Part shown: piece after piece, positions 2,501-59,718 of the stretch | How positions within the stretch are numbered: the first letter of the stretch is position 1 | Layout: each line of letters starts with the position of its first letter | Source: Eledone cirrhosa | Lineage: Eukaryota | DNA: 64,000 bases | Assembly (NCBI GenBank): GCA_964016885.1 | Contig: OZ024740.1 | Location: 379,254,001 to 379,318,000 of the forward strand | Reading direction: 5' to 3' | Notes under the pieces: model-generated | Told to the model about the DNA's origin: nothing | What the model saw: only the letters and a program-made list of their open reading frames with translations | Databases searched by the model: none | Position numbers and translations under genes: made by a program

Positions 2501-2654
2501 CTTTATACTTTCACTCGTGTAGGACACCTCGATTATTTTTCATTTTGTAAAAAAACCTCACTTTCTTATATATATATATATATAGTATTAATTAGTATTA
2601 ATTATACTATTTATGGTTATGTAAATACAAAAACCTTTTGCAGTTATATATATT

Positions 2655-5600
2655 TTTTTATTCAAAGATATCAAGAATAATAAGGACAAAAAATTTATTC
2701 AATTTGATATCAATTCATACTACACCTCTATTTCCCCTATCCTATTAAATAAGGCACTAATCATGGCCATGAACAATAGCGACCTGACTAGAGCCCAGAT
2801 TGATGTCATCCTTGCGGCCTGTAAAACCATAATCACCTTCGAGGACCAACTATGGACACGCAAGGATACGCACAACAACTTCGACATAACCATGGGATCT
2901 AGTGACCCGGCGCAGGTCACTGATTTGGTCGGCCTATACCTTCTTAATGAAATCCATAAGGACCTCCCTTACCTCAACGGTGGTTTGTACCGCGATGATG
3001 CACTTCTACTTATAGAATATAAAAAAATTTAATATAGAAAGAACTAGAAAACTATTGCACAAGACATTCAAAAACTTTAACCTTAGTATCACCATGGACA
3101 TAAACACTAAAAATGTTAACTTCCTAGACGCCACACTATACCTAGACTCAAAAATATATACACCTTTCCATAAGCCTAACGAAAAACTCATTTACGTAGA
3201 TACCAAGTCTAATCACCCTAGATCAATATTAAACTCTATCTCTAAGGGGGTATCCAATAGAATCTCTAATCTATCATATGACGCAAACATATTTAGCAAA
3301 AACTCACAATATTACAATCAAGCATTAGCTAGATCCGGCCATAATATAGAAATTGAGTTCCTACCTAAGAAAACACATAGCTACAACATCATCTCGCACA
3401 ACATGTCCATGAGGAAACCTAATGATAGGAATAGCAACCACAAGTACACCAAAGCGGAGGGTGCCACCGAAAGTAACCATTACCACGGAAACTACTGTAG
3501 TGCCTTAGGAAGAAACAACACACCAAACACTAAAAACAAAAATAGAAGAAGAAATAATACATTTTTCAACCCTCCTTTCAACCTAAATGTCTCTACCAAC
3601 ATACCTAGGGCTTTCTTCTCACTACTAGATAAAAATTTCCCTCTAGGACACAAGTACCACAGCCTTTTAAACAAAAACACTATTAAAATCTCATACTCTA
3701 CGACGCCTAACTTAGCATACCACATAGCTAGCAGCAATAAAAGTAAAATTAATTCTTACTTCCAACAAATGAAATCACAACAGGATGTAAACCTTCTAAA
3801 TACCGCTGTAGCAAGCAACCATAGTAACGGCAGTAACAATAGAAATAACACTAGTATAAGAAATAACACCGGGGTTGACAACCCGAATGTCCAAAATCCT
3901 ATAGCTACCACCCAGACTTCTGCACTGCATTATAACCAGCAGACTAACACACAGGATAATTGTAACTGTAGAGCTAATAGAACCTGCCCTTTAGATAAAA
4001 AATGCCTAACCAAGGATATCATATACTCATGCACCGTCATAACTAGCAACTCTTCAGAAACCTATGTAGGCTCCACTTCTAACTGCTTCAAAATCAAATA
4101 TAATTCGCACATCCACTCGTTCAAAAAGCACAGCCTAGCCAACTCCACCTCACTATCTAGCTACATACACTATCTAAAAACTAAAAATAAACCTTACACA
4201 CTAAATGGGAAGTGATAGGCAGCGCGACTTCGTACAAACCACCTAATAAATTTTGTAACCTCTGTATACTAGAGACCCACAATATTATCTTCTCTAACCG
4301 TAACCTACTTAACAAAAAATCTGAAGTGTTTGCAACTTGCCAGCACCGCTTCAGACATTCCTTCCAAAACTTTAAGCCCAATATATAGCAATGTCGGACT
4401 TGAACCAAACACCACCTCTAGCATCAAACACCAGGGGCACACCTTATACCACATACCCAACACTAACTGATCTAATATAACACAAACAGCGACATCCCTC
4501 TAGAACCCTTCGCAGGGCGAATACCCATTTATACCTCTACGTTAGGTGTGACAACATCCACCCACTTGAACTGCACTACACCGCTCTATAGGTAATTTAA
4601 GCATGAATTGATTGGCTTGTTAGTGTTGTGCGGAGGAAGTGCCTTCCTTGGACAGATGAAAAACGTTTTAATCTAGTAACGCTGTTGAGCAGTAGGACCG
4701 GTACGCTGAGTGCAGAGAATGAATGTATTGCAACTGGCGTGCGGATTGTACATATATGGATGATTTGATGGTCAGAGTGGGGGTCATGAGGACTGCGGAT
4801 TGACCCCTGGTCGGCCCTGGTGATGATTATCTTTCGACATCCAATGTAGCAAGCGATGACCCAGAACTTACCAGAGATCATTGTGTGGTGAAGTGATTCT
4901 GCAATCACCGCGCCTGGTCCTATGAGTAGACTACAACCACAGAGATCATTAATTTAGAATCCTCGCTCGTCGTCTATAATATTCATTTGTGGCACCCTAC
5001 GATGGGGGTTAATTCACCATAATAATACGAACACCTTCAGCACAACTTAATAGACTACTCTATAGTTAAAACACTTTATGCTTTAGAAATTTTTTAGAAG
5101 TTGCGCATAACCATAGAAATTAGGATCTATTTTGAGACACATTTCAATAGTTAGTAATTGAAACCTTGGAGTTACCTCCCCTCATGCATTAACTCCCCTT
5201 AGCCACACACACACTTCCGGGTAGTATTCAATGTCGATTCTCGAAACGTAACAGCCTCCTGTATTGAACTAAAGAACATCAGACTACGATTCTCTAACTG
5301 GATTGTCAAACGCTCAATATCGAATTGTCGTGGATTATGTGAGGGGCATATAATCTGAAAAATACACTCCCCTGACTATGAAAATGTCGAAGTACATGAA
5401 GTCCATAACATCCCCTCGCTGTGCATTTCCAATACTTTTAATATTTTTAATGCTTATATCATTTCTCCACACACAGACTATAACAATCATATAAAGAATT
5501 TGCCACCAGATCAACCAACCTAACACTCTTGTTTACCTACCTAAGTGCTTCTACCACACGTAACTCTCTGCCACACTATATAAACAAGACGCACGTGCTT

Positions 5601-8734: not shown

Positions 8735-8800
<66 letters not shown>

Positions 8801-8836
8801 ATGTATGTATGTATGTGTGTGTGTGTGTGTGTGTGT

Positions 8837-9897
8837 GTTTTCATCCTCAGTATATACTGATTAATGTTCACAGCCATCCCCAGCATTCTCGTGTACCACC
8901 CATCCACCATCTGAGTGATTTTCTTGGTCAGTGTCCAAGTCTCAGACCCGTACAGCAGCACAGACTCCACTACAGCAATGAAGAGGCGGATTTTCATGTC
9001 TTTACGAAGGTCCGACTTCCACACCGATCTCAAGCTGTGGCACGCCGCCCAGGCTTTGCTCTTCCTCTCAACCACATCATCTTCCGTATTCCCAATCTTT
9101 GCTCCCAAATACAGGAAGCCCGCAACCAATTCTAGCGGCTTCCCGCCTACATTAGTGATCCCCTCTGCCTTCTCAACATTCTCTACCAGATATTTTGTCT
9201 CATTCATTCTCAGCCCCACACTCATCGACACAATCTCAACCTCCCGCATCAAATCCTATGTCTCCTTCACTGTATTTGTCACCAAAACTATGTCGTCGGC
9301 AAATTCAGCATCTGATACCCTTTTTGACTTAACTCTCTTGCTCTGAGCCGGTGCTACAGTAAAGCCAGAGTCCTGGTGTTTCTCCAGTGCAAGGCGCATA
9401 CAATAGTCCACTACGATGATAAAAAGGTAGGGAGCCAATGTATCTCCCTAGAGCACTCCAGCCAGTATCTCAAAGAACTCTGTCATCCCATCAGGTGTAA
9501 TGACTTGGGCTTTGGTGTTGGTGTAGAGCAGTGATATCAGGTCCACTATCTTCTTGGGGATTCCATAAGCCTGTAAGATCATCAGTATACAGTGAGGATG
9601 AAAAACTCAGAGCTGTATGGAAGCCTCCCAAAAGTCAGCTCAAAAGTGACACAGAGGAGACTGAGGTTAACTGGACATGCTCACCGACATCCAGAGCTGA
9701 CATTGCACTCAGTGCTCTTGTGGGAGCCCCTACTTGGACACACTGGAAAAGGAAGACCAAGGTTAACGTATGTTGATGCCCTAAGGACAGACACTGGTCT
9801 GTTGGAGACGCAGGACATGGCAGCGATAATGAGGGACAGAGACCGCTGGAGAGAACTCGTCCATGGATCTCGGGAATTTTACCCGCCCTAGATAGAT
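8837..9897. mobile_element. RTE-clade LINE, 5'-truncated with 5' inversion (8837-~9578 minus, ~9579-9897 plus)
   Basis: Minus part: GVL*GDTLAPYLF, EFADD, FLYLG, ESVLLYGSETW. Plus part continues RRLRLTGHAHR...GRPRLTYVD...DRDRWR and ends in a (TAGA) tail. Confidence 0.85.
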
Positions 9898-31551: not shown

Positions 31552-32126
31552 ATCACATACATACATACATACATACATACATACATACATACATACATAC
31601 ATACATACATACATACATACATACATACATGGCGACACCTAACTCAGGCTCAAGTATAGCCATCCCTTGAAATTTTCAAACACGCTTCTGTATGTGTGAG
31701 GCACACTTATGACCTTTTAGGCCAACAACTGTCCTACATTCTCTCGCATGATACAGATGTTACAGATCAAGAATCGATGGCTGGTTGTGATGTACTTTCA
31801 TGTGCAACCTCAGGCCTTCTACTGATCTGCACCAGCTCTTTTTGCTTAGTTCATTTTGTGACTCTTTAAACCATCTTTGCTAGGGCATGCTCTCCCACAC
31901 TCATTGCATGTCAGCTCTCCTTGGTCCTCCACGCTTCCTGGCAATTCCACTTTCAAACACTTTCTCTCATCCCTTTTTAACATTTCATAATTTCTTCGGA
32001 ACAGTTCAAAGTGTACTTTCCCTTTATATATAGCTTCTCTCCACCGAGTTCGAGCATTGGCAACTTGTTCCCTGATGATTTGTAAAGAATGAAACAGTTC
32101 TATTCCTGTAGAATCTCATCTATAGT

Positions 32127-32252
<126 letters not shown>

Positions 32253-32267
32253 CATATATATATATAC

Positions 32268-35200
32268 CACAAACCAAACTTTGAGTCTAACCTGCCGGTC
32301 AGACTGATAGCCCCCTCACAGTCAGACATGCGGGTTATTAGCAAAAGCATTTTAGATAGGATCCTGCCCACACTTAAGAGTAAAATAAGGTTACTCTGGT
32401 TTTGCACCAGCCAGGTGCTGGACTGGTTTACATTTTTACCTGACAAACATAGGACTAGCTTCATACAACAAGACATCAACAATTACTACTCCTCTGTCTC
32501 GCCCATAGTCCTGAACAAGGCACTCATATTCGCGATGAATAGGACAGACCTAACGCGCGATGAGGTCCGAATCATATACGCCGCCAGAAAGACCCGGATC
32601 CGATTCGGTGGGGACATATGAACCCGGAGTGACTGGCCAAATCATTTTGACATTACAATGGGCTTCAGTGACTCCGCACAGCTAACGAACCTGGTTGGGA
32701 TATACATACTCTACGAGATCAGGAGCGAATTACCCAAACTGGGTGGCGGACTGTACCGAGACGATGCACTCTTCACCGTCGTGGACCACAGCACCACAAT
32801 GGTCGAAAATATGAAGAGGAGAATTAGACACTTCTTTAGCAAGGTAGAGATGGAACCCAATAGAAAAGTAGTGAATTTTCTGGACACCACCCTCAACCTC
32901 AACACGAAGCTAAATCACCCATATCATAAACCCAATGAGAAGCTGGTGTATATCGACGCTGGGTACAATCACCCTAGATCTATAGTTAAGGCCGTAGTTA
33001 AGAGTGTCTCTGACAGGATCTCTAACTTGTCTGCCAATAAAGAGATCTTCAATAGTAATGCTGATTACTATAACTCGGCGTTAGCTAAGGCGTCCCACAG
33101 CCATATGATCAGCTATAACCATAAGGGACATGATCGAGATGACCCAAGGGTACCCCGGGCCAATACCCTCAGGGGCATGAGTCGTCCATCTAATACCTCG
33201 GTGACCAGTAGTAACACTCCCAGACCCCTATCCGTCATCATCCCCGGTAGAAGGTCTCGCATACCCCACCGGTCTAATACCTACAACGCTGAAGACCACT
33301 GCGGTGCGGAGAATAGGCACCCCTGCACCGGCCCCACCACTCGCCGAACCCCCATTGAGCAGGGAGGCCGCACCGCGCAGGTTTATAGCCCCAGAGTGGG
33401 CCCACCTAACCCTCATGATAGTGACCGCTCCACACACCTGAGTGACACCAACCGAGCTCGACCTGAGCTGTGCACAACCCCGCGATGGACCACGACGGAC
33501 ACCCAACAACCCCGCAAGAATAGGACCAGGAAGGTCACATGGTATAACCCCCCGTACTCGGTGGGTCTACGTACATGCTTGGCTAGAACATTCTTTAGAG
33601 TACTGGATAAATGTCTCCCTAGGACCCACAAGTACCATAAAATATTCAACAGGCACACGGTGAAAATTTCCTACTCAACCACACGTTCCGTATCCCAGCA
33701 CATAGCCGGCATAAATAGGAATAGGCTCACTGCCTCTAATACCACCGTAAACCCCGGCGACACCCAACGGAACCAGCACGCGGGACGCACCAGACCCCGG
33801 ACAGGCCCAACTAGCACAGCGGAACCCAATGACCCTGTGCTGATTGCAGCGGCTACCCAGCCAACCTCGAGTGATGGTAACACTCGAGATACTTCATGGA
33901 GGAACCAAGCTATTAAACAGAAGGGCCGACTTATTCGGCGCCTGCAGACACCTAAGGACGGGAACTTTCCTCAAACTATATGGATAAACCCCGGTTATGA
34001 CCTCCCACAACCCCTCACCCCCCGTAGGTCCCCTACACCCCGTACTAATGACCAATGGGCAACAACACCCACCCATAATTTGTAGTACCTACGGTGGATT
34101 GTCCACCGGATCCTCTACTGGTTAGGAGTCAGCAAAACCACGTTTATTGAACCTGAGGACCTCCCCCCCCCCCCCGGGAGTGGCCCACACAGGAAGAACA
34201 TTATCCTAAGGTACTAACCCTATACGCATGAATGAGCGCCCACAACCGTGTGTTGTGTGTGTATACTGGGATTCCGTGAATGTACACACTCATGTGATCG
34301 CAACGAAATACTAATATACCCCAGGTTGCATTTGAAAAATGTACGAGTATATTTGTATATGCTCTCTTGTATGAGTGCACATGTGTATATAGACATACAC
34401 ACGCATCCAGAGGTATAAAAGTGTGGGTGAGTATATATGTCTGTACTAAGGGATTCGCCTAAGCTCCAAAGCCCCCAAGCTATTGCTGTGAAGATATATA
34501 TCACACTCTACTTTTGTCTAGTCTAAACAATAACTTTTCCAAACACCCACTTTACTTTTCTTTAAAAATAACACCCACCTCGTTTTATGTCTGCCTTATA
34601 CTTGGATTCGGGGGCCTCTGCTGTATATATGTATGCACTTGTGCGTACATACATATATATACACACCTGTATGGATTTGTGTGTGTAGATGTGTGTGTGT
34701 GCGTCGGTGGGGGTAGGTGTGAGTGTATGTACAAGTCAACCAACATAAGTATTTTTATTTGTAAACTTTCTAAGTATTTGACTCTAACCATAAGTTGCAG
34801 TATTACAACCCCACATAAATTCCTCAATTTGTGTGGGTGGATGTGTGTGTCTGTGGGGGTGGGTGTGAGTGTATGTGCAAGTCAACCAACATAAGTCTTC
34901 TTATGTGTAAATTTTTTAGTATTCTACTCTAACCATAATTTTCAGTAGTACTACCCCACATAAATTCCTCAATTTAAGAATGACCTGTAGTTTCGAATTT
35001 CATACTATAAACCTCAATTGAACATATATCTGACCAGGAAAGCTTTTTGTGAAAAACAGTCATATGGAACTATTGTCATCTTGCATGACGGTTTGAACTT
35101 TACAACGCCACCTGCCTCTTTGAGGTCAAATACCAACCCTACTAGCATCTACAAACTGACCAATGAGAATTAAGATTATTCCTGCTGACATTAAATTATC

Positions 35201-35368
35201 CCTAACGAGCTCATATGTCCCAAGGCTCTGATACCATCAATACCATAAACACAGAGCTGGCATATCTAAGAACTGACTAACTGCCTGATGAGATCATAGC
35301 CATTCAATGGCTATCATCGAAATATATATAGCAGTAAGTAAAGGATTATGAGTTCATGTTTCGTCACT
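32268..35368 (+). mobile_element. Penelope-like element, Naiad-type, 5'-truncated, endonuclease core deleted
   Basis: [60 protein letters not shown]. 32328-32621 and 32658-34085 are in frame across one TGA. C-terminal LLNRRADLFGACRH survives in another frame (33883-33987). Hammerhead at 35280-35335. Confidence 0.9.
35280..35335 (+). ncRNA. Minimal type I hammerhead ribozyme in PLE pLTR
   Basis: actgc-CTGATGA-gat.atagccatt(c)aatggctat.atc-GAAA-tatata-TA-gcagt; palindromic stem III. Confidence 0.8.
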
Positions 35369-35461: not shown

Positions 35462-37520
35462 TGTTATTCCTTGAATCTCAGTCATTGATGTTGGTTAACT
35501 GGAAAGTCCGTTGGATTGAATATCAAGCCACTACCTGCAGCCTCAGATATTCAGGACGTATCGGAGGGTTCTTGCTGTTCCAAGCAAGCATGCCTTTTGA
35601 AGCGTTCCAAAAAGCGTGAAGGGGCCGATTTTCTTTAACCATCCCTGGAAACTTTTGGAGATAGTCCCCAGTGCGCCTATGACAATCGGGATCACTTTGA
35701 CTTCATGGCAGTTCCAAATCCTTTTCACCTCCCACTTTAGGTCCTGGTATCGGTAAATTTTCTCCCTCTCCTTCTCTTGCACTCTCGTGTCGAACGGGCA
35801 GGCCACATCCACAATCAGACACGATCTTTTTTCTTTGTCCACAACCACCAGGTCAGGTCTATTGTGTTCCAGTTTTTTGTCCGTCTGTATCCTAAAATCC
35901 CACAGCACCTTCACCTGATTGTTCTCCATCACCGCCTCTGGCCTATGCTCATACCATTTCTCAGAATGTGGTAAATTGTTTACTTTGCACAGGTGCCAGT
36001 GGATCACCCTGCCCATCACATCGTGTCTCCAGCCCTTATAGTGGGTCTGGGCTAGGTGTTTACACTCGGACACAATGTGAGCCACAGTCTCCTCTCTCTC
36101 TCCACAGATACTGCACAGTGGGCTAGCCTCCTCCTTGTAAATATGGTGCTTCAACCACTTCGTTTTGAGGGCCTGCTCCTTCGCAGCCATTAGCATTCCT
36201 TCTGTAGCCTTTTTGAGGTCTCCTCTTCTCAACCAGTTCCATGTCTGTGGATCTCTAAATTCAGTTTTCTCAAAGAAGGTACTATGAAGGGATTTTCCCT
36301 TAAGGCTGCTCTTCCTCCTTGATGTTATTTCCTCCTTGGACATCCCCTGGCCTACTGTCCCCGCCTTCAGTACAGCTCTGAGCATTGGCTCCTTACTATA
36401 GGTCACGTATTTGTATAGGTTGTTTTTCTCCATCTGAACACAGTCCTCTATGCTGATAAGACCTCTTCCACCCTCAGATCTCCTTAGGTAGAGTCTATCG
36501 ACATCACTCCTCTTGTGGAACATGTTGTAGATAGTCAATAGCTTCCTAGTCTTCCTATCCATTTCTTTTTGTTCAGCAACATTCCATCTCAGAATTCCCG
36601 CACTGTACCTAATAATAGACACAGCTCGGGAATTTACTGCGCTTATGGCATTTCTGCTGTTCAGATGTGACTTCAATACGCTCCTTACTCTCCGAATGTA
36701 TTCAGTTTTTAACAATTCCTTCATTTTTTTGTTCTTTATGCCATCAGCCTCCAGAACGCCCAAATACTTGTATCCTTCCTCAGAGTCAATTTCCTTTATC
36801 ATCTCACCTGTTGGTATCTGGATCCCGTTACTTCTGCTCAACCTACCCCTCCTCATCACAATGACTCCACATTTACCAATACCAAACTGCATACATATAT
36901 CACTGCTGAAAATACGGACAGTGTCAACAAGCACATCCAACTCCTTCTCACTTTTCCCGAAGAGCTTAAGATCGTCCATGAAGAGGAGGTGATTGATGGT
37001 AAGCTCTCCCTTTCCCAACTTGTATCCTGCTCTCACTTTTCGCAGCATGATGGTCAAGGGCATCAGGGCAAGGACAAACAACAGAGGGGACAGGCTATCT
37101 CCCTGGAATATACCTCTCTTGATCCTCACGCTTCCCAAGGATACTCCAGTTGATGTCAACTCTGTCTCCCAGGACCCCATACTCCTGCCCAGCAACTCTC
37201 TGATGTTATCTGCCACCCTGAAGATCTCCAGGCTTTTGGTGATCCAAGAATGAGGCACCATGTCAAATGCCTTTCTGTAGTCTATCCATCCCATGGCAAG
37301 ATCAGTGTGTCTCCTCCTGCAATTCCCCATTACCATCTTATCAATAAGTAACTGGTCCTTTGTACCACGTGACTTCTTTCGGCATCCTTTCTGTTCGTCC
37401 GGTAACAAGTTGTTTGTGTGGAGGTGATGGTAGATTTCCTCAGACACAATGCTCGTCAACAGTTTCCACATTACGGACAGACATGTGATAGGTCTATAGT
37501 TGGTAACATCATTACCCTTG

Positions 37521-37521
<1 letters not shown>
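35462..37521 (-). mobile_element. R4/Dong-clade RLE non-LTR retrotransposon, 5'-truncated copy A with uninterrupted RT+CCHC+RLE frame
   Basis: [75 protein letters not shown]; stop 35543. 3' end runs into (AAT)n. Confidence 0.9.
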
Positions 37522-37598
<77 letters not shown>

Positions 37599-37604
37599 GT
37601 TATT
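37522..37604. repeat. (TTA/TAA)n target microsatellite between the two Dong copies
   Basis: Directly visible. Confidence 0.9.
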
Positions 37605-40600
37605 ACTCTTTGAGTCTCAGTCATTGATGTTAGTTAACTGGAAAGTTTGTTGAAATGAATATCAAGCCACTACCTGCAGCCTCAGATATTCAGGACGTAT
37701 CGGAGGGTTCTTGCTGTTCCCAGCAAGCATGCCTTTTGAAGCGTTCCAAAAAGTGTGAAAGGGCCAATTTTCTTTAACCATCCCTGGAAACTTTTTAAGA
37801 TAGTCCCTAGTGCGCCTATGACAATCGGGATCACTTTGACTTCATGGCAGTTCCAAATCCTTTTTACCGCCCACTTTAAGTCCTGGTATCGGTTAATTTT
37901 TCTCCTTCTCCTTCTCTTGCACTCTCGTGTCGAATGGGCAGGCCACATCCACAATCAGGCGCGATCTTTTTTCTTTGTCCAAAACCACCAGGTCAGGTCT
38001 ATTGTGTTCCAGTTTCCTGTCCGTCTGTATCCTAAAATCCCACAGCACCTTCACCTGATCGTTTTCCATCACCGCCTCTGGCTTATGCTCATACCACTTC
38101 TCAGAATGTGGTAAATTGCTTACTTTGCATAGGTGCCAGTGGATCACCCTGCCCATCACATCATGTCTCCAGCCCTTATAGTGAGTCTTGGCTAGGTGTT
38201 TACACTCGGATACAATGTGAGCCACAGTCTCCTCTCTCTCTCCACAGATCCTGCACAGTGGGCTAGCCTCCTCCTTGTAAATGTGGTGTTTCAACCACTT
38301 CGTTTTGAGGGCCTGCTCCTGCGCAGCCATTGACACTCCTTCTGTAGCCTTTTTAAGGTCTCCTCTTTTCAACCAGTTCCATGTCTGTGGATCTCTAAAT
38401 TCAGTTTTCTCAAAGAAGGTACTATGAAGGGATTTTTCCTGAAGGTTGCTCTTTCTCCTTGATGTTATTTCCTCCTTGGACATCCCCTGGCCTATTGTCC
38501 CCTCCTTCAGTACAGTTCTGAGCATTGGCTCCTTACTATAGGTCACGTATTTGTGTAGGTTGTTTTTCTCCATCTGAACACAGTCCTCTATGCTGATAAG
38601 ACCTCTTCCACCCTCAGATCTCCTTAAGTAGAGTCCATCGACATCACTCCTCTTGTGGAACATGTTGTAGATAGTCAATAGCTTCCTAGTCTTCTTATCC
38701 ATTTCTTTTTGTTCAGCAACATTCCATCTCAGAATTCCCGCACTGTACCTAATAATAGACACAGCTCGGGAATTGACTGCACTTATGGCATTCCTACTGT
38801 TCAGATGTGACTTTAATACGCTCCTTACTCTCCGAAGGTATTCAGTTCTTATCAATTCCTTCATTTTTTTTGTTCTTGATGTCATCAGCCTCCAGAACGC
38901 CCAAATACTTGTATCCTTCCTCAGAGTCAATTTCTTTTATCATTTCACCTGTTGGTATCTGGAATCCGTTACTTCTGCTCACTTACCCCTCCTCATCACA
39001 ATGACTCCACACTTACTAATACCAAATTGCATACATATATCATTGGTGAAAATACGGACAGTGTCAACAAGCACATCCAACTCCTTCTCACCCTTCCCGA
39101 AGAGCTTAAGATCGTCCATGAAGAGGAGGTGATTGATGGTAAGCCCTCCCTTTCCCAACCTGTATCCTGCTCTCACTTTTCGCAGTACACTGGTCAGGGG
39201 CATCAGGGCAAGGACAAACAACAGAGGGGACATACTATCTCCCTGGAAGATACCTCTCTTGATCTTCACGCTTCCCAAGGATTCTCCAGTTGATGTTAAC
39301 TCTGTTTCCCAGGAGTTCATACTTTTTCCCAACAACTGCCTGATGTTATCTGCCACCTTGAAGATCTCCAGGCTTTTGGTGATCCAAGAATGAGGCACCA
39401 TGCCAAATACCTTTTTGTAGTCTATCCATCCCATGGCAAGACCAGTGTGTCTCCTCTTGCAATTCCTCATTACCATCTTATCAATAAGTAACTGGTCCTT
39501 TGTACCACGTGACTTCTTTCGGCATCCTTTCTGTTCGTCCGGTAACAAGTTGTTTGTGTGGAGGTGATGGTAGATTTCCTCAGACATAATGCTTGTCAAC
39601 ATTTTCCACATTACGGACAGACATGTGATAGGTCTATAGTTGGTAACATCATTACCCTTGATTCGGTCTTTCATTATCAGAACTGTGGTACCTTTTGTCA
39701 ACCACTCTGGTACCTCACCTGACATCAAGCAGTCATTGAACATGGTTGTCAGTTTCGGGTGGAGGGGTGTTATGTTTTTAATCCAATATCCCTGCACACC
39801 ATCTGGGCCAGGTGATTTCCAGTTGGTTAGTTTTTTTGGCCTGCCCCTTAAGAGTTTCAACTGTGATACTCAAATCAGTTTGTTGGCGTGCCTGTTCACT
39901 GATCTCCTTCTGTACTGTCTCAATCCACACTGCCTGGTCATTATGTTTAACATCCTGCTCCCATATTCCTCTCCAGAATGTTTTAGTTTGTTCCGCCTCA
40001 GGGATCAAGTCGTTGCCTCTTTCTTTCCCTTCAAGCTGTCCAAACAGCATCTTCTGGTTGTTGTCGAACATGCGGTTCTGTCTATACTGGCTGACTCTGT
40101 TCTCGTATCGCCTGATTTTTGCACTCTTTGCTACAATGCGTTGCTTCAGTTCCTCTATGATAATATTTAGCTTTTTCCTCCTAGTTTTGTACTTTATTTC
40201 CAGTCTATGTTTAGTGTCTATGTTTTTTAGTGTCCCATTCAGTAGGGACTCAAGCTTTCCAATGTCATTTCTCATTTCCCTGATTTGACCACTCAGTCGT
40301 TTCTTCCACCAAGGCTCTGCTCTTTCTTGTCTGTTGTTTCCTCTCGCTTTTATACCAAGTAGTTTCCTCGCCGTATTTGCTGTTGCTTTGAGGATATAGT
40401 TGCACTGGTGAAGGCTCCTCGCCTCAAGGTATGGGATGACTTTGTTTACCTTAGCTGTTGTTTCTTTTAACTTTTTCCTGTCTACAAATCTTAGGTTCTC
40501 CCACTATCATTGTTCAATTCATCTACCACTAAGTTTAGGATATCTACCAAATCTTGTCCCAGCCCGTCAGCATTCATCTCCTCAGTGGCCGTATCTCTGT

Positions 40601-41225
40601 TCCAGGTATTATTTATCTCAGCATTCAGATCATTGTCTGTTTCGGGTGGTTCCTCCGTTCTCTCGACCTCTTCACCTTCATTTCCCACTGGCTCGTTTGC
40701 CTGGCATACTCCACCCCCCATCTCCAAGCTAATCTCTCTGCCCAGTTCCTCCAGTTCCAGCTCGCTTATCCACCCATTAGTTCTTATTACCCGAGCCTGC
40801 CCGGCCAGTTTTTGTTCATCTAATTTAAATGGACCAATCTCGTTCCAGATGTTATGCATCCTTTTCCTATAGCCTTTCTCCTTGGGGTTACTCTTCAGGT
40901 AACATTGCATAACAGTTCTATTCAATTCTTTCGTCCAGTTGGTTCTGGTCCCTTTCCATCTTCTTCTTCCTCCGACACCAGCAGTATTTGGTTGACAGCC
41001 AGGTCCCTGCTGCTGAGCCAGGGAGCACCTGTTGGGTGAGAGTCTGTCACATGACATTCTAGTCTCCATTTCACTGTTATTCGAACTGTTTAGGTTCGAC
41101 ATTTAAACATTCTTATCGAGGATTGGCGAATGTATGGTTACATAACCACCGGTGAATTACTTGTCTCCGGTGGTTTCGTCACTCCACGTGACTTTTGTGT
41201 GGCATTATCACGCTGTAGACGAACC
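37605..41225 (-). mobile_element. R4/Dong-clade element, apparently full-length copy B with several frameshifts
   Basis: ATG 41102; pieces 40491-41102, 39778-40275, 38979-39860, 37893-38930, 37682-37954. Motifs [30 protein letters not shown]. Clearly similar but not identical to copy A; 5' boundary approximate. Confidence 0.9.
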
Positions 41226-43019: not shown

Positions 43020-44332
43020 CGATATATATATATATATATATATATGTGAGTATAGACATAGAATATTCGAAAATATTCTGTATGTTTATAATAAACATTT
43101 TGAAGACCTAATCGCTATAGAATAGAATACGTCACGTATTACAATTAGATTCTCGATAAAAGCAAGGGAAGTAATCTACGCGTTTCATTCTTGTTAGAAT
43201 TCATCAGGACTACATATCCAGTGCTTTTATCGAGAATGACACAGCTAGAGACTTATAGAATACTTAGCTGTGTACTGGAACTGGTTTGAAAGAGCGGTTG
43301 CCGGTCCGGCAGAAATTAGAAATTGGAATAAATGCTCTGAAATAGCGATATATATGTGAGTATAGACATAGAATATTCGAAAATATTCTGTATGTTTATA
43401 ATAAACATTTTGAAGACCTAATCGCTATAGAATAGAATACGTCACGTATTACAATTAGATTCTCGATAAAAGCAAGGGAAGTAATCTACGCGTTTCATTC
43501 TTGTTAGAATTCATCAGGACTACATATCCAGTGCTTTTATCGAGAATGACACAGCTAGAGACTTATAGAATACTTAGCTGTGTACTGGAACTGGTTTGAA
43601 AGAGCGGTTGCCGGTCCGGCAGAAATTAGAAATTGGAATAAATGCTCTGAAATAGCGATATATATGTGAGTATAGACATAGAATATTCGAAAATATTCTG
43701 TATGTTTATAATAAACATTTTGAAGACCTAATCGCTATAGAATAGAATACGTCACGTATTACAATTAGATTCTCGATAAAAGCAAGGGAAGTAATCTACG
43801 CGTTTCATTCTTGTTAGAATTCATCAGGACTACATATCCAGTGCTTTTATCGAGAATGACACAGCTAGAGACTTATAGAATACTTAGCTGTGTACTGGAA
43901 CTGGTTTGAAAGAGCGGTTGCCGGTCCGGCAGAAATTAGAAATTGGAATAAATGCTCTGAAATAGCGATATATATGTGAGTATAGACATAGAATATTCGA
44001 AAATATTCTGTATGTTTATAATAAACATTTTGAAGACCTAATCGCTATAGAATAGAATACGTCACGTATTACAATTAGATTCTCGATAAAAGCAAGGGAA
44101 GTAATCTACGCGTTTCATTCTTGTTAGAATTCATCAGGACTACATATCCAGTGCTTTTATCGAGAATGACACAGCTAGAGACTTATAGAATACTTAGCTG
44201 TGTACTGGAACTGGTTTGAAAGAGCGGTTGCCGGTCCGGCAGAAATTAGAAATTGGAATAAATGCTCTGAAATAGCGATATATATGTGAGTATAGACATA
44301 GAATATTCGAAAATATTCTGTATGTTTATAAT
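43020..44332 (-). repeat. Left arm of 310-bp hammerhead tandem array (4 full units + partial; ribozyme-sense on minus)
   Basis: GTGAGTATAGAC recurs at 43046, 43356, 43666, 43976, 44286. Hammerhead cores at 43171-43213, 43481-43523, 43791-43833, 44101-44143. Confidence 0.95.
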
Positions 44333-44339
44333 GTATGTT

Positions 44340-46242
44340 TATGTCTATACTCACATATATATCGCTATTTCAGAGCATTTATTCCAATTTCTAATTTCTG
44401 CCGGACCGGCAACCGCTCTTTCAAACCAGTTCCAGTACACAGCTAAGTATTCTATAAGTCTCTAGCTGTGTCATTCTCGATAAAAGCACTGGATATGTAG
44501 TCCTGATGAATTCTAACAAGAATGAAACGCGTAGATTACTTCCCTTGCTTTTATCGAGAATCTAATTGTAATACGTGACGTATTCTATTCTATAGCGATT
44601 AGGTCTTCAAAATGTTTATTATAAACATACAGAATATTTTCGAATATTCTATGTCTATACTCACATATATATCGCTATTTCAGAGCATTTATTCCAATTT
44701 CTAATTTCTGCCGGACCGGCAACCGCTCTTTCAAACCAGTTCCAGTACACAGCTAAGTATTCTATAAGTCTCTAGCTGTGTCATTCTCGATAAAAGCACT
44801 GGATATGTAGTCCTGATGAATTCTAACAAGAATGAAACGCGTAGATTACTTCCCTTGCTTTTATCGAGAATCTAATTGTAATACGTGACGTATTCTATTC
44901 TATAGCGATTAGGTCTTCAAAATGTTTATTATAAACATACAGAATATTTTCGAATATTCTATGTCTATACTCACATATATATCGCTATTTCAGAGCATTT
45001 ATTCCAATTTCTAATTTCTGCCGGACCGGCAACCGCTCTTTCAAACCAGTTCCAGTACACAGCTAAGTATTCTATAAGTCTCTAGCTGTGTCATTCTCGA
45101 TAAAAGCACTGGATATGTAGTCCTGATGAATTCTAACAAGAATGAAACGCGTAGATTACTTCCCTTGCTTTTATCGAGAATCTAATTGTAATACGTGACG
45201 TATTCTATTCTATAGCGATTAGGTCTTCAAAATGTTTATTATAAACATACAGAATATTTTCGAATATTCTATGTCTATACTCACATATATATCGCTATTT
45301 CAGAGCATTTATTCCAATTTCTAATTTCTGCCGGACCGGCAACCGCTCTTTCAAACCAGTTCCAGTACACAGCTAAGTATTCTATAAGTCTCTAGCTGTG
45401 TCATTCTCGATAAAAGCACTGGATATGTAGTCCTGATGAATTCTAACAAGAATGAAACGCGTAGATTACTTCCCTTGCTTTTATCGAGAATCTAATTGTA
45501 ATACGTGACGTATTCTATTCTATAGCGATTAGGTCTTCAAAATGTTTATTATAAACATACAGAATATTTTCGAATATTCTATGTCTATACTCACATATAT
45601 ATCGCTATTTCAGAGCATTTATTCCAATTTCTAATTTCTGCCGGACCGGCAACCGCTCTTTCAAACCAGTTCCAGTACACAGCTAAGTATTCTATAAGTC
45701 TCTAGCTGTGTCATTCTCGATAAAAGCACTGGATATGTAGTCCTGATGAATTCTAACAAGAATGAAACGCGTAGATTACTTCCCTTGCTTTTATCGAGAA
45801 TCTAATTGTAATACGTGACGTATTCTATTCTATAGCGATTAGGTCTTCAAAATGTTTATTATAAACATACAGAATATTTTCGAATATTCTATGTCTATAC
45901 TCACATATATATCGCTATTTCAGAGCATTTATTCCAATTTCTAATTTCTGCCGGACCGGCAACCGCTCTTTCAAACCAGTTCCAGTACACAGCTAAGTAT
46001 TCTATAAGTCTCTAGCTGTGTCATTCTCGATAAAAGCACTGGATATGTAGTCCTGATGAATTCTAACAAGAATGAAACGCGTAGATTACTTCCCTTGCTT
46101 TTATCGAGAATCTAATTGTAATACGTGACGTATTCTATTCTATAGCGATTAGGTCTTCAAAATGTTTATTATAAACATACAGAATATTTTCGAATATTCT
46201 ATGTCTATACTCACATATATATCGCTATTTCAGAGCATTTAT

Positions 46243-46243
<1 letters not shown>
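44340..46243 (+). repeat. Right arm of 310-bp hammerhead tandem array (6 full units + partial; ribozyme-sense on plus)
   Basis: ATGTCTATACTCAC recurs at 44341, 44651, 44961, 45271, 45581, 45891, 46201; reverse complement of the left arm. Confidence 0.95.
44473..44561 (+). ncRNA. Type I hammerhead ribozyme of the array unit (representative; repeats every 310 bp)
   Basis: gtagtc-CTGATGA-attc(taacaa)gaat-GAAA-cgcg-TA-gattac, core 44497-44539, predicted GUA cut after 44533. Stem I extends through an internal loop into a perfect 16-bp helix (44473-44488 / 44546-44561). Confidence 0.9.
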
Positions 46244-46314
<71 letters not shown>

Positions 46315-46328
46315 AGAGAGAGAGAAAT

Positions 46329-46379
46329 GGCTTCTACAGGACTAGAACTATTTCATTCGGGAGAAATCATCAGGAAGCC
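46329..46379 (-). ncRNA. Hammerhead ribozyme, PLE pLTR fragment with short fold-back (46379-46399)
   Basis: ggcttc-CTGATGA-t.ttc(tccc)gaa.t-GAAA-tag(ttctagtc)ctg-TA-gaagcc. Confidence 0.75.
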
Positions 46380-46420
46380 CTGATGATTTCTCCCGAATGG
46401 ATGTGTTTCACCTTGCATAT

Positions 46421-48108: not shown

Positions 48109-50625
48109 TACACAAGTATCAAAGTTATGTTCAAATCATGTAATCGGTGACATTTGTTTCTTCCAAACTTTAGTTTGGGGTCATCGGAGCATTATCAATG
48201 TTTGTACATATAATTAACCTCCTATTCAACTGAAGAATAATACAGATACATATATATTGATGTTGTGAACAACAGTTTAGTATATATAGGGTGTAATGGA
48301 TGCGACATATATTATACGAGAATTGTACAATAATTCAAATTAAGATTAAAATTAAAATTAAAATTAAAAGCACAGAGTGGAATACATGCCACAGATAATA
48401 CAATAGAATATTTTAATAATTAAAGAGGCGTTGAGAAAGAAGTACATATTCAAGAGTGTAGAGATTGTACATGCGTTAGTCATATACATGGGAAGGAAAC
48501 AAGCAAATGTATTAGGCATATATGAGTACTGTATGGCAAGGTATTACATAAAATACAAGCACTTTAAGCGAATATGTTAGTGTATTATGGAGGATGTAAA
48601 GCGATGATATTTTCTGTATAGTTCAAATTTTTATGTGTGTAGAATATGAAAGTTACTGATTTCCCATCCATTACATATGTTAAGTTATATTTTAGTTAAT
48701 GTTTGTATTGAATGTTTTTAGTTAGTTATAGTAATGGATTGTAACTTGGTCCTATTGTATTCATATTCATGGATTAGAGTTGTTCTACAGCGAGATTTTT
48801 TAACGGTTTAATATCCGGAAGTGGATATGGAATTAAGGGGAGCTAATGCGTAAGGGGAGGTAACTAGCTCAATATAATATTTAAATTCTTTGCTCTGATA
48901 TACATTATATAGTGTCACAATTGAATCCCTTATACAAAATGTTATATATTTATATTTAATTATAAATACAGTCTACTCTCTCATAATATATTAAAGGTTT
49001 CATTAGATTGTTATCTACTCAATATTAGGCAAGATATGGAATAATGTATAGCTGTTTACATGTTAAATTAGATAAATCCCTTATGTTAATAAATTAATCC
49101 TTTATATACAATGTTATTAATTTATACATTTAATTATAAATGTATATATAATTCATTGTCACATATTACATTTAATGACTATACATATTATATTATATTT
49201 CAATTACTGTATATATTATAAGTACTCTAAAGTATTTATATTATAAGGTGGTGACTAGATGTTTATTTCTAGAGTATAATGTTAGAGATAAATAGGATTT
49301 GTGTAAAGGAAAGAGCAGATCAAAGAGTGTGATGCTGTGGGGAAGAAAAGTCTTAGAGGTAAATGAATTCAAATGGTGATGAATTCAAATCTGACATTGT
49401 TATATACTAGCGGCTAGGTTTAAAGCTATGGAATGAGTGTCGGTAGTGGTGGTGGCACGAGGAAAATATCTTTTTATTTTCTTTTTATTTAGGAGGTTTA
49501 GTTTCGAAAAGATTATAGTATGGGTCTCTAGAAGACAGAGGTTACAAAATTTATTCGGTGGTTTATACGATGTAGCCCTACCAACTACTTCCCATTGAAG
49601 TGTATATGTTCTATTCCTAGTTTTCAGAGAGTGTATGTAGCTAGATAGTGAAGTGGAGTTGGCTAGATTGTGTTTTTTGAAAGAGTGGAGGTGCGAGTTG
49701 TATCTCGTCTTGAAGCAGTTCGAAGTAGAGCCAATATATGTTTTAGAAGAGTTGTTTGTGTTGACCCTGCAGGAGTAAATGATGTCTTTGTTTAAGCAAT
49801 TATTACCTAATGGGCAAGTTCTATTTGATCTACAGTTACATTTATTCTGGATGTTATCTTGCCGGTTATTATGTTGTGTAGAAGTCTGGTTGCTATGGAG
49901 AGCATTAGGGTAATGTCGTTCCTATTGTTATCGATTTCATTAGTGTTATTACTATTATTACTATTGCTACTAGGGTTTGTAGTTATTATGTTGTTCTGTA
50001 ACTTTACCTCCTGCTGTGTTTTAATTAGTTGGAAATAATTATTAATCTTCCTTTTATTACTTCTAGCTATATGGTTTGCTATGTTAGGTGTGATAGAGTA
50101 AGATATTTTAATGGTGTTTTTATTTATAAGATTATGGTATTTGTGGCCAGATGGGAAGTTGTTTTTCTAGGATTGAGAAGAAAGCCTTAGGTAAATTGGT
50201 AGAGACGTTTAAATTGAAAGGGGGATTGAAGAATGTATTAGTTCTTCAATTTTTGTTTTTTTATAATATCTATTGATGTATTTCTGTTTATAATATTATT
50301 GTGGTGTTTACTTTGGTGCGAGTTAACTTTGATATTACCCTTCGTATTAGAGTAAGAGCGGCTAGTACTCTTATTATTTTTCCTCATGGCCATATTGTGA
50401 GAAATAATGCTGTAACTATGTGATTTTATAGGTAGAAATTCAATCCCATTTTTATGGCCTGATTTAGCTAATGCCTGATTATAGTATTGGGAATTATTGT
50501 TAAATATGGTTTCGTTATGTGAGAGATTCTATTAGATATTCCTTTAGTGATTGAGTTTAATATGGATTTAGGGTGGTTAGACTTGGTATCCACATAAATT
50601 AGTTTTTCGTTAGGTTTATGGAAGG
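48105..50625 (-). mobile_element. Naiad-type PLE, decayed paralog of 2655-5905, 5'-truncated
   Basis: Minus strand PFHKPNEKLIYVDTKSNHP (50625), FFNPPFNLNVSTN, CNCRSNRTCPLGNNCL (~49795-49840), YIGSTSNCFKTRY, FCNLCLLE. Hammerhead tgct-CCGATGA..ccaaact/agtttgg..GAAA at 48142-48193. (TA)n on both sides. Confidence 0.85.
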
Positions 50626-50950
<325 letters not shown>

Positions 50951-57934: not shown

Positions 57935-59718
57935 TTAATATTAATAAGAGGAATTCCAACTTTGTCTGATTTACTCGTTTTATTTACAATCCTTTAAAAT
58001 ATATATAATGGTATTATAATGAAATAGTATGATAGAATATTAAATTCTAAGAGTTAATTGAACAAGTACTTTCATGCTTTCGCAATTTTCAGGTTCATGA
58101 TATGTGGTGACAGTCGAGTTTGCAATTTTCAACTGTAATGAGATGGGTAAATTTCCTACCTTTTATACATTTTATACAGAGAAAAGTGGCTCCAGAATGC
58201 AAAGCCCTGTAAACTGTATTTCGACCAATCAGTGTGTAGTTTCACTGAATTACTACAGCTGATTGGTTTAAGCGTCACGGCTGGTTGAGCATGCTAACGA
58301 CCAATAGTCATGTCCAACGTATCAATTGTTTTGCTTTTTTGAAATGATGAAAATAGCATTTTCTATTAATCATCACCATCAACATCACTTTTATTATTAT
58401 TATTATTGTTGTTGTTGTTGTTGTTAGTGGTAGTGGTCATAGTGGTAGTAGAAGTAATACCCCTAGGCGTTATTATTGTTCATTTAGCTTGGGTTTGAAT
58501 TTATCAATAAAATTCTTTTCTTTGATTTTTCTCTTGATTTCACTTGGGCTGTGTAATTTGTAGAATGGGAATATTATAAATATTCCCTGACCACATGTTG
58601 CCAGGTGGCCGCTTAGGGGTATCTGACGGACATTTGGGTACGTGCACGTTCCGATAGTGCATTTCCAGTTTGACCGACATTTAGTTCTTCACAATTCGGG
58701 CATTTAATGCAGTAAATTAGATTTCTGCTTTTGCAGTTCATATTTGCATTTGGGAATATTTTTCCAGTTTTTGTTTTCATATATTGACCGGCGTGTATGG
58801 ATTGACATGTGCCGCATCGATTATCATTGCATTTAGATACAGTGAATGATTGGTCTTTGTTGTTAAGGTCAAACTTTGCTTTTGTTAGCAATTGCTTCAA
58901 ATTTTTTGGCTGTCTTTTACTAAGAGTCAAAGATCGATCTGTGATTAAGCCTTTTAATTCATTACTTTGAGCAATGATCGGTAGGTTTGCTTTGGCAGTG
59001 TTGAAGATATTCTGGTGACATGGGTTGTGTGTCGTTATAAATGGTATGACCAGTTCTTGGTTTCTTCTTCCTTGGGTTGTTCTAAGTTGTTGTATAGGTA
59101 TTTTTATAGCCCGCTGTATGCCATTTTCTATAAGTAGAGATGGGTATTTTTGTTTGAGCAAAAATTTTCTTAGTTCTGTTAGGCGTTGTACCTGGTATTC
59201 GTATCTTCTACAATGGTACAAATTCTTCTGGCTAGGCAGTATGGGATGTTGCGTTTTGTATGAGGTGGATGGCACGACTTAAAATTCAGATATTGATGGG
59301 TGTCTGTGTGTTTATAATATATATCCGTGGTAATGGTGGTGTCGTTTTTGATTATCATTATATCTAGGAATGGTAATTTGGTCCTACTCATCTCTTTTGT
59401 GAATTGGAGAGATGGGTGTAGGTTATTCAGGAGGATATTGAACTCATCCAGAGTATCTAGAGATTCTGTCCAGATGATGAAACAGTCGTCAAGGTATCTC
59501 TTCCAAGATTTTTCACTGTACTTTCTAAAGTCAGTACTATATTTTTCCTCTATTTCTTGGTAGAGTTGTTGTTCTAAGTATCCCATTACAGAGTTCGCGT
59601 AAATGGGAGCAAACTTCGTTCCCATCGCTGTGCCTCTAATTTGGATGTAATTTGGAAAACAACACTTTCTTCTTCTTCTTCAATGGAAAGAATTACATCC
59701 AAATTAGAGGCACAGCGA
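57935..59718 (-). mobile_element. Penelope-like element, Neptune-type, 5'-truncated with short 5' inverted duplication
   Basis: GTAMGTKFAPIYAN, RYLDD, LPFLDI, YYKHTD..QYL..SCHP; linker CNDNRCGTC; NLIYCIKCPNC...VGQTG. Inverted copy 59690-59718 of 59626-59652. pLTR hammerhead at 58059-58097. Confidence 0.88.
58059..58097 (-). ncRNA. Minimal hammerhead (core CTGAAAA, probably mutated) in Neptune pLTR
   Basis: tgaac-CTGAAAA-t.tgc(gaaa)gca.t-GAAA-gtac-TT-gttca. Confidence 0.6.

What the first reader, a model, noticed from the sequence alone, without database searches (positions are those of the whole stretch)
43020..46243. Ten-copy 310-bp non-coding array with a hammerhead ribozyme in every unit: candidate cephalopod retrozyme / circRNA source
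Seen: exact 310-bp period, no differences between units by eye, no ORF of 60 aa or more, and one canonical type I hammerhead per unit (CUGAUGA/GAAA, GUA site, palindromic CGCG stem III, 16-bp distal stem I). Known: tandem 150-400-nt units with minimal type I hammerheads define metazoan non-LTR retrozymes (newt satellite 2, schistosome SM-alpha, coral/mussel/axolotl repeats). These self-cleave to monomers, circularise, and are thought to be copied by PLE reverse transcriptases. Inference: this is a very young insertion from rolling reverse transcription of a 310-nt circular RNA. I do not know of a described family with this sequence, but cannot search.
Basis: partly seen in the sequence, partly recalled or inferred. 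Interest (0 to 1): 0.9.

Follow-up and report, generated by a model that had tools for sequence, protein, structure and literature searches.

The report
Ribozyme repeat with Penelope-type mirrored insertions
This is one of more than a thousand young insertions of a 310-base non-coding repeat with a hammerhead-ribozyme motif, nearly all built as two mirror-facing stacks of copies, and the way they end suggests that a Penelope-type jumping-gene enzyme likely copies one small RNA circle round and round from both sides of a DNA break.

Summary
The array is real, but it is not one tandem. It is two perfect arms joined head to head: 4.18 units on the minus strand and 6.14 on the plus strand, with a 7-bp filler between them and (TA)n outside. 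Each unit carries one type I hammerhead motif.

The family has at least 1,006 loci. In 111 sampled loci, all 95 clearly two-armed ones are head to head. Almost always one outer end falls at unit position ~130 and the other at ~165. A young, intact Neptune-type Penelope-like element (PLE) in the same genome shows the same one-short/one-long pattern in 14 of 14 two-ended loci.

Both arms share one haplotype in 33 of 36 loci (5% expected), although 29 haplotypes occur among 47 loci. Ten loci carry a variant seen nowhere else in the sample in every unit of both arms. No sampled locus runs into a PLE ORF.

Verdict: a new non-LTR retrozyme family. Its insertions point to PLE mobilisation by priming from both ends of a break, and to rolling copying of one RNA. 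Cleavage, expression, circularity, the exact partner and the cephalopod host are untested.

The parts
43022..43045 (.). Left (TA)n target. Its last 8 bases also match unit positions 132-139, so the boundary is ambiguous.
   Evidence: sequence
43038..44332 (-). Left arm: 4.18 perfect units. 3' end at unit position 131-139 (the 'short' end class), 5' end at unit position 85. Unit numbering: 1 = first base after the predicted cut (44534).
44333..44339 (.). 7-bp filler at the head-to-head joint; it repeats sequence lying just to its left (likely a templated end-joining insert)
   Evidence: sequence
44340..46243 (+). Right arm: 6.14 perfect units. 5' end at unit position 117, 3' end at unit position 160 (the 'long', tail-bearing end class).
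44473..44561 (+). First plus-strand type I hammerhead motif: distal stem 44473-44488/44546-44561, stem I 44497-44502/44534-44539, core 44503-44509, stem II 44510-44523, palindromic stem III, predicted cut after 44533. Repeats every 310 bp (6 plus-strand copies).
43149..44167 (-). Four minus-strand hammerhead motifs; predicted cuts between 44107 and 44106, then every 310 bp leftwards
44591..44679 (+). Four-way-junction RNA domain (unit 58-146), conserved with compensatory changes in families A-D that have different hammerheads. Inferred binding and start site of the reverse transcriptase; the short end lies in its last hairpin.
44659..44703 (+). The two inferred reverse-transcription start zones (unit ~126-139 and ~160-170). 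The stretch between them is the PLE-like 'tail'.
46244..46277 (.). Right (TA)n target, followed by (AG)n

Best explanation
This is a young insertion of a dispersed non-coding hammerhead repeat (a non-LTR retrozyme), built as two head-to-head arms in a (TA)n run, and it was likely made by a Neptune-type Penelope-like reverse transcriptase-endonuclease that primed from both ends of the cut DNA on one small, probably circular, RNA. Steps: (1) Inferred, untested: arrays are transcribed, the hammerheads cut (likely as dimers, since stem III is only 2 bp with a palindromic loop) and 310-nt monomers are ligated into circles. (2) Inferred: the PLE protein binds the conserved four-way junction and cuts both strands of a (TA)n target. 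(3) Ends shown, cause inferred: one DNA end starts copying at unit ~130 and the other at ~165, so each insertion gets one short end and one long ('tail') end. (4) Haplotype pattern shown, circle inferred: both arms copy the same RNA haplotype for an unfixed number of rounds, through the ribozyme site. (5) Junction pattern shown, pathway inferred: the two growing ends meet at unrelated phases and are joined through 1-8 nt of microhomology or a short filler. My odds: PLE-mobilised 0.9; two separate primings 0.8; unit-length circle as the usual template 0.7; the 4,734-bp Neptune family as the specific partner 0.4.
For: ARCHITECTURE. 52 of 60 similarity-ranked loci are two-armed and all 52 are head to head; 47 of 48 classable ones have one short and one long end, p = 1.7e-13; an exact-end recount gives 43 of 45. 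Position-ordered sets: 9 of 11 are two-armed, all head to head, 8 short/long and the ninth 130/154. Of 40 loci picked by their long end alone, 34 show a short end on the opposite arm and none shows long/long; 1 has a tiny unscored arm, 2 are single-armed, 1 hits an N gap, 2 run off the fetched stretch. (TA)n follows 100 of 112 3' ends by a strict rule. SAME SIGNATURE IN AN AUTONOMOUS PLE of this genome: a 784-aa RT + GIY-YIG ORF with a CX4CxxC linker and 46 hits scoring 613-617 bits, most identical; head to head, (TA)n, two end classes about 40 nt apart, opposite in 14 of 14 two-ended loci among 24 stretches, two of which are duplicates. Its ends lie at +124 and +165 from a putative ribozyme cut; the repeat's modal ends are +130 and +165/166. 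ONE TEMPLATE: 29 haplotypes among 47 loci, arms identical at all segregating sites in 33 of 36 loci against 78 of 1,446 cross-locus pairs; 169 variant events fixed in every unit, 66 single-unit, 13 partial; 10 loci have a sample-private variant in all units of both arms. In subfamily B, 28 of 28 and 26 of 27 arm pairs are concordant at two segregating sites. NOT FOLD-BACK: the 5' phases of the two arms are unlinked (KS p 0.24) and either arm can be the longer (24 of 47). JOINING: microhomology of 2 nt or more in 20 of 33 filler-free joints against 18% expected, p = 7e-8; fillers in 18 of 51. RNA-LEVEL CONSTRAINT: 97.5% of cells paired and 4 pairs changed on both sides in the junction domain; 0 of 33 fixed variants hit the 12 core hammerhead positions, and 6 break a pair against 10.5 expected, p 0.027. 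LITERATURE: a purified PLE cuts and extends both strands and starts at two internal sites that define the tail (PMC11167929); PLE insertions have an inverted copy and a tail often at one end only (PMC8557442).
Against: There is no RNA evidence either way, and cleavage is untested. The commonest haplotype has a U-U mismatch at the base of stem II, and in one preprint 8 of 9 predicted Xenopus retrozyme dimers did not cleave (10.64898/2026.07.22.740005). The PLE PAc used uncleaved RNA as its dominant substrate in vitro (PMC11167929), so a linear multimer could also serve. The repeat shows no sequence similarity to the post-ribozyme region of three Neptune families (shuffle p 0.27-0.88); the partner rests on geometry alone, and the Neptune-D ribozyme core is non-canonical. 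Some arms mix haplotypes (L166, L168, L182, L187, L193; L264), and very long arms carry repeated single-unit variants (L255, L256, L274), so template switches, multi-unit templates or later local duplication also occur. 'Private' means private among 51 of 1,000 or more loci. The covariation rests on about four lineages and its control ignores relatedness. The in vitro study saw no difference in start site between strands, whereas the genome shows strict one-short/one-long pairing; that difference is unexplained.
Confidence: 0.7

Rival explanations
1. Same PLE machinery and twin priming, but the template is a linear, uncleaved read-through multimer (or linear monomers joined by template jumps); no circle is needed.
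For: The hammerhead was dispensable for PAc insertion in vitro (PMC11167929). Source arrays of 20 or more units exist. Some arms mix haplotypes.
Against: 29 haplotypes among 47 loci, nearly each uniform across all units and both arms, require repeated passage through a unit-length bottleneck. 5' ends do not pile up at the cut site (4 of 104; 7 of 100; about 3.6 expected). Insertions next to the cut site are mostly fixed in all units of a locus rather than varying unit by unit.
Confidence: 0.18
2. The second arm arises by self-priming or fold-back (the model proposed for inverted PLE ends in PMC3846280), not by a second priming from target DNA.
For: It would explain why both arms share a haplotype. 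A few joints sit at internal hairpins of the unit.
Against: The joint phases are unlinked (3 of 50 within 15 nt, 5 expected). Arm lengths are independent and either arm can be longer. Both outer ends are precise and of opposite class.
Confidence: 0.05
3. The unit is only the truncated end (pLTR) of an autonomous PLE, or an ordinary satellite expanded in place by unequal crossing over.
For: Several earlier scan findings of hammerhead inserts proved to be truncated PLE ends (AI notes, unchecked). Very long arms show signs of local duplication. Only a small share of the PLE loci was examined (10,597 GIY-YIG candidates).
Against: Units follow each other at an exact 310-bp period with no ORF. None of 37 resolved long-end loci leads into a PLE ORF. 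A profile of the conserved domain hit only 4 of the PLE-bearing stretches L051-L100 and L199-L232; the three I read are separate (TA)n-bounded insertions. In-place expansion cannot make both inverted arms share private variants with fixed outer ends.
Confidence: 0.05
4. Assembly artefact (collapsed or chimeric palindromic reads).
For: The window's own central joint was not bridged by any listed contig of the one deep run laid on it (that run may be another individual, and no raw reads of this genome were available).
Against: The same end rule holds at about 95 loci and in an unrelated PLE family. Joints differ locus by locus. One locus has a 9-11 bp target duplication in a non-microsatellite site (L237). 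Independent runs show (TA)n after the same unit positions 139 and 165.
Confidence: 0.02

Closest known systems
Metazoan non-LTR retrozymes (coral, mussel, axolotl; Cervera and de la Pena 2020, PMC7229834; review PMC7761336; preprint 10.64898/2026.07.22.740005)
   Same: Tandem non-coding units in the 150-450 bp range, GC under 50%, a type I hammerhead in every unit, no LTR, a self-paired predicted fold, and co-occurrence with PLEs.
   Different: In the text I read these are described as tandem repeats and the PLE link is a candidate inferred from shared ribozymes, co-occurrence or pLTR phylogeny; the review says no conserved motif points to the partner. Here each insertion is a head-to-head pair of arrays with PLE-type tail ends and a conserved structured domain at the start sites. 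RNA, circles and cleavage were shown there and are untested here. Their supplements were not seen.
Endonuclease-bearing Penelope-like elements, Neptune/Nematis type (PMC8557442, PMC3846280; PAc biochemistry PMC11167929)
   Same: Inverted 5'-truncated second arm, 30-40 nt tail at one end, (TA)n targets, two internal start sites downstream of a hammerhead. The same pattern is seen in this genome's own intact PLE family.
   Different: No ORF, and a 310-nt unit repeated up to 20 or more times per arm. No sequence similarity to the PLE ends tested. The tail is described as optional; here it is paired almost strictly with a short end on the other arm.
L1 twin priming (recalled from memory; no call)
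   Same: Head-to-head inversion from priming at both target ends, joined by microhomology.
   Different: L1 primes at the poly(A) end and once internally on a linear RNA and makes one non-repeated copy. Here both primings are internal, at fixed sites, and each yields a multimer.

Membership tests
non-LTR retrozyme | Tandem units of about 150-450 bp, GC under 50%, non-coding, no LTR | tested here: met
   310 bp, about 34-35% GC, longest stop-free stretch 59 aa
non-LTR retrozyme | Type I hammerhead motif in every unit (at least two consecutive) | tested here: met
   10 of 10 complete motifs; Rfam HH9 E 0.003 but below gathering; pair 10.1-11.1 is A-U here and U-U in the commonest haplotype
non-LTR retrozyme | Dispersed, mobile, non-autonomous (not just a pLTR) | tested here: met
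   1,006 loci with the exact long end; none of 37 resolved loci joins a PLE ORF; a sample, not the whole genome
non-LTR retrozyme | Self-cleavage of the transcript | not testable with these tools
   Only structure and variant pattern are available
non-LTR retrozyme | Expressed as linear and circular monomer RNA | not testable with these tools
   No RNA holder listed; a circular unitig also arises from tandem DNA
non-LTR retrozyme | Target-site duplication longer than 4 bp, when present | tested here: inconclusive
   Hidden by (TA)n in this window and most loci; one locus shows 9-11 bp (L237)
autonomous EN+ Penelope-like element | RT plus GIY-YIG ORF between pLTRs | tested here: not met
   No ORF in the arms
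PLE-type insertion signature | Inverted 5'-truncated arm, 30-40 nt tail at one end, microsatellite target | tested here: met
   same pattern in the genome's own PLE
derivative of a specific PLE family | Sequence homology to a PLE pLTR | tested here: not met
   No significant match to three Neptune families or to the PLE-bearing stretches fetched; most PLE families were not sampled

The most novel reading that the evidence does not exclude
A PLE reverse transcriptase dimer engages one 310-nt ribozyme circle at two staggered start sites and rolls round it from both ends of a double-strand cut. This would explain both retrozyme spread and the long-unexplained inverted-plus-tail structure of Penelope insertions. 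In addition, the circle may move between species like a viroid: units 99-99.7% identical to this one turn up in runs filed under up to 17 organism labels. Contamination, prey DNA or close relatives explain that last part as easily, so the cross-species part alone is about 0.1.
Probability: 0.35. Interest if true: 0.85.

Novelty: new variant of a known kind. Interest (0 to 1): 0.68.

Why it matters
What mobilises animal retrozymes, whether circles are the real templates, and how Penelope elements come by their inverted arm and one-sided tail are all stated as open in the papers read (PMC7229834, PMC7761336, PMC8557442, 10.64898/2026.07.22.740005). This family gives more than a thousand young natural products whose haplotype and end patterns discriminate between the models. 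It also gives a 310-nt template with mapped start sites and an intact candidate enzyme in the same genome, so the question can be put in a test tube. A small RNA domain that directs multimeric, site-biased insertion in trans would also interest genome-writing work.

Tried and rejected
Rfam at gathering threshold: nothing in the window.

RNA evidence: no RNA holder listed. The one raw-read run laid (X21) gave 0 reads and is no test. The window's central joint was not bridged by listed contigs of X1 (a hole proves nothing).

Partner search by sequence: blastn against 50 PLE-bearing stretches, local alignment with shuffles against three Neptune families and an nhmmer profile found no pLTR homology. 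The blastn part was swamped by (TA)n matches and is not used. L221's profile hit was not read.

Pfam found nothing in four PLE-like fragments of the window; their naming rests on motifs seen by eye. No Pol III A or B box matched my recalled patterns in the unit, so the promoter is unknown.

BLAST-based joint phases over-extended at hairpins and were redone with exact ends. In that redo L188 (duplicate of L163) and L174 (complex) were dropped; L174 also failed. Adjacent separate insertions in L039, L189, L273 and L276 were set aside before counts, and L050 was split into two loci.

The 21 family-A loci were ranked by identity to the window's unit, so their 0.07% divergence is biased; some searches were run to remove that bias.

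The host taxon was not determined. Dfam and Repbase could not be searched. Earlier-finding look-ups by place and by sequence were empty.

Full report
OBSERVATION. The region holds two perfect arrays of one 310-bp unit, not one. 43038-44332 is 4.18 units on the minus strand and 44340-46243 is 6.14 units on the plus strand; they have 0 mismatches and are joined 5' end to 5' end by a 7-bp filler, with (TA)n outside both. I number the unit from the first base after the predicted cut (44534 = 1). Each of the 10 complete motifs reads as a type I hammerhead with a 6-bp stem I, a 5-bp stem II and a 2-bp palindromic stem III (core numbering recalled). A 16-bp distal stem closes it (z = -6.6), and the whole unit folds better than shuffles (z = -4.4). 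Rfam HH9 matches weakly, E 0.003 and below gathering. The longest stop-free stretch is 59 aa. Stem III closes a 2-nt loop and self-pairs as a duplex, the layout said to need dimers (PMC4209133, passages).

FAMILY. In the 3.0-Gb own genome the exact 40-nt hammerhead stretch occurs 2,729 times, a sister version with a 312-bp unit 587 times, and the exact long end followed by (AT)n at 1,006 places; reversed controls gave 0. More distant families C and D share unit ~59-210 at about 77-82% identity but carry different hammerheads.

ARCHITECTURE. I mapped 111 loci. In the first set, 60 similarity-ranked loci including the window, 52 are two-armed, all 52 head to head, and 8 single-armed; 47 of 48 classable loci have one end at unit 110-148 and the other at 158-172, p = 1.7e-13. 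An exact recount gave 43 of 45, with modal ends at 130/139 and 165/166; L163 and L188 are duplicates. To remove ranking bias I took loci in chromosome order. Of 11, 9 are two-armed and head to head, 8 short/long and one 130/154 with a 9-11 bp target duplication. Of 40 chosen only for a long end, 34 show a short end on the other arm, none is long/long, 1 has a tiny unscored arm, 2 are single-armed and 3 are unresolved. No resolved locus leads into a PLE ORF.

THE SIGNATURE IS THAT OF PENELOPE-LIKE ELEMENTS. PLE insertions often carry an inverted 5'-truncated copy and a 30-40 bp tail at one end, with microsatellite bias (PMC8557442: passages and section 15). A purified PLE cut and extended both strands and started at two internal sites that define the tail (PMC11167929: parts 1-2 of 4). 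This genome is rich in PLEs (10,597 GIY-YIG candidates). One family is young and intact: a 784-aa RT-EN with the CX4CxxC linker of the Neptune/Nematis type, in a 4,734-bp unit. It inserts head to head in (TA)n with ends about 40 nt apart, opposite in 14 of 14 two-ended loci among 24 stretches. Its ends lie at +124 and +165 from a putative cut, the closest of three families to the repeat's (others +76/+139 and +117/+171), but no sequence similarity was found (p 0.27-0.88). The partner class is well supported; the partner family is a guess.

ONE TEMPLATE, MANY ROUNDS. In the 51 position-ordered loci (445 units) there are 29 haplotypes among the 47 loci with full coverage. 169 variant events are fixed in every unit of their locus, 66 are single-unit and 13 partial. 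Arms match at all 21 segregating sites in 33 of 36 loci, against 78 of 1,446 cross-locus pairs. Ten loci carry a variant found nowhere else in the sample in all units of both arms. Subfamily B agrees (28 of 28 and 26 of 27). A new mutation can reach every unit of both arms only by passing through a unit-length template, which is what rolling copying of a circle predicts. Against a pure version: mixed arms in several loci, and repeated single-unit variants in arms of 19-24 units. 5' ends do not cluster at the cut (4 of 104; 7 of 100), which argues against linear monomers as the usual template.

TWO PRIMINGS, NOT FOLD-BACK. Self-priming was proposed for head-to-head PLE ends (PMC3846280, passages). 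Here the joint phases are unlinked (KS p 0.24), arm lengths are independent, both outer ends are precise, and joints show excess microhomology (2 nt or more in 20 of 33, null 18%) or fillers (18 of 51). That resembles L1 twin priming (recalled).

RNA-LEVEL CONSTRAINT. Unit 58-146 folds as a four-way junction that is kept across families A-D: 97.5% of cells paired, 4 pairs changed on both sides, and G-U-compatible changes on the hammerhead strand (8 sequences, about four lineages). The short end lies in its last hairpin. None of 33 fixed variants hits the hammerhead core; 6 break a predicted pair against 10.5 expected. The commonest haplotype does break the base of stem II.

OTHER RUNS. 20 runs under 17 organism labels and 16 studies hold half or more of the unit's words; none is on record as RNA. 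I laid 6 of these 20 and one further run. Five gave a single circular unitig 99-99.7% identical to the unit, with variants that also segregate in this genome; one of those also shows (TA)n after unit 165, and the deep run X1 shows it after unit 139. I cannot tell close relatives, contamination, prey DNA and horizontal spread apart.

COMPARISON AND NOVELTY. By sequence criteria it is a non-LTR retrozyme (PMC7229834: abstract and parts 2-4 of 6); the RNA criteria are untested. That paper and the review (PMC7761336, passages) name PLEs only as candidates. A 2026 preprint adds co-occurrence and pLTR phylogeny in vertebrates and leaves the mechanism open (10.64898/2026.07.22.740005: parts 1-3 of 5). 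Seven literature searches showed no description of head-to-head retrozyme arrays, of strict short/long end pairing, or of this family. The library omits most subscription journals, I read no supplements, and Repbase and Dfam were not searchable, so the family may already be catalogued there. An earlier AI note reports a similar PLE-type array with a tRNA-like unit in another genome (unchecked).

VERDICT. Real, young and mobile: a new retrozyme family of a known kind, with an insertion structure not found in my searches. It turns the PLE-mobilisation and rolling-circle hypotheses into direct experiments. Interest 0.68.

Noticed in passing
window 46328-46420 (partial second copy near 50830-50940; relatives at L090 ~8740-8900 and L203 650-720): A short palindromic insert next to the array whose arms carry a hammerhead-like core resembling this family's stem II; probably a stub of another head-to-head PLE-type family.
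   Followed up: partly
window 2625-4215 (+), 32112-34085 (+), 49400-50166 (-), 58613-59679 (-): Broken PLE-like ORF fragments, named from motifs by eye (no Pfam hit in the four pieces scanned); the last resembles the L084 Neptune family. Other hammerhead-like motifs lie at 35285 (+) and 1837 (-).
   Followed up: partly
window 35543-41102 (-): Two adjacent copies of a non-LTR retrotransposon (RVT_1 plus zf-RVT in the piece scanned), broken into several frames.
   Followed up: no
L213-L232: A young intact Neptune-type PLE family with a 4,734-bp unit, an extra upstream ORF in a different frame from the RT-EN ORF, and a non-canonical hammerhead-like core that it shares with a second Neptune family and, loosely, with retrozyme family D.
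   Followed up: partly
L222 7917-8560; L254 and L283 left flanks: Retrozyme insertions sit directly beside PLE 3' ends across a (TA)n run, suggesting shared, re-used target hot spots.
   Followed up: no
L166 2254-2877: An arm of almost exactly two units that begins and ends next to the ribozyme cut and differs in haplotype from its partner arm; possibly copied from a cleaved linear dimer.
   Followed up: no
L255, L256, L274, L243: Arms of 19 to more than 24 units. L256 has variants repeating at a 7-unit interval, suggesting later local duplication or a multi-unit template.
   Followed up: partly
L192 ~2700-2774: A single-armed copy whose 5' end is fused inside the hammerhead core of an unrelated element (also present in L087).
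   Followed up: partly
runs X1-X20: The unit is held at 52-96% of sampled words by runs under 17 organism labels; unexplained.
   Followed up: partly
L052, L131-L160, L039, L203, L222: Older retrozyme families C (2,738 candidates) and D share the start-site domain, and many copies show the head-to-head layout, but they carry different hammerheads; the ribozyme looks like a swappable module.
   Followed up: partly
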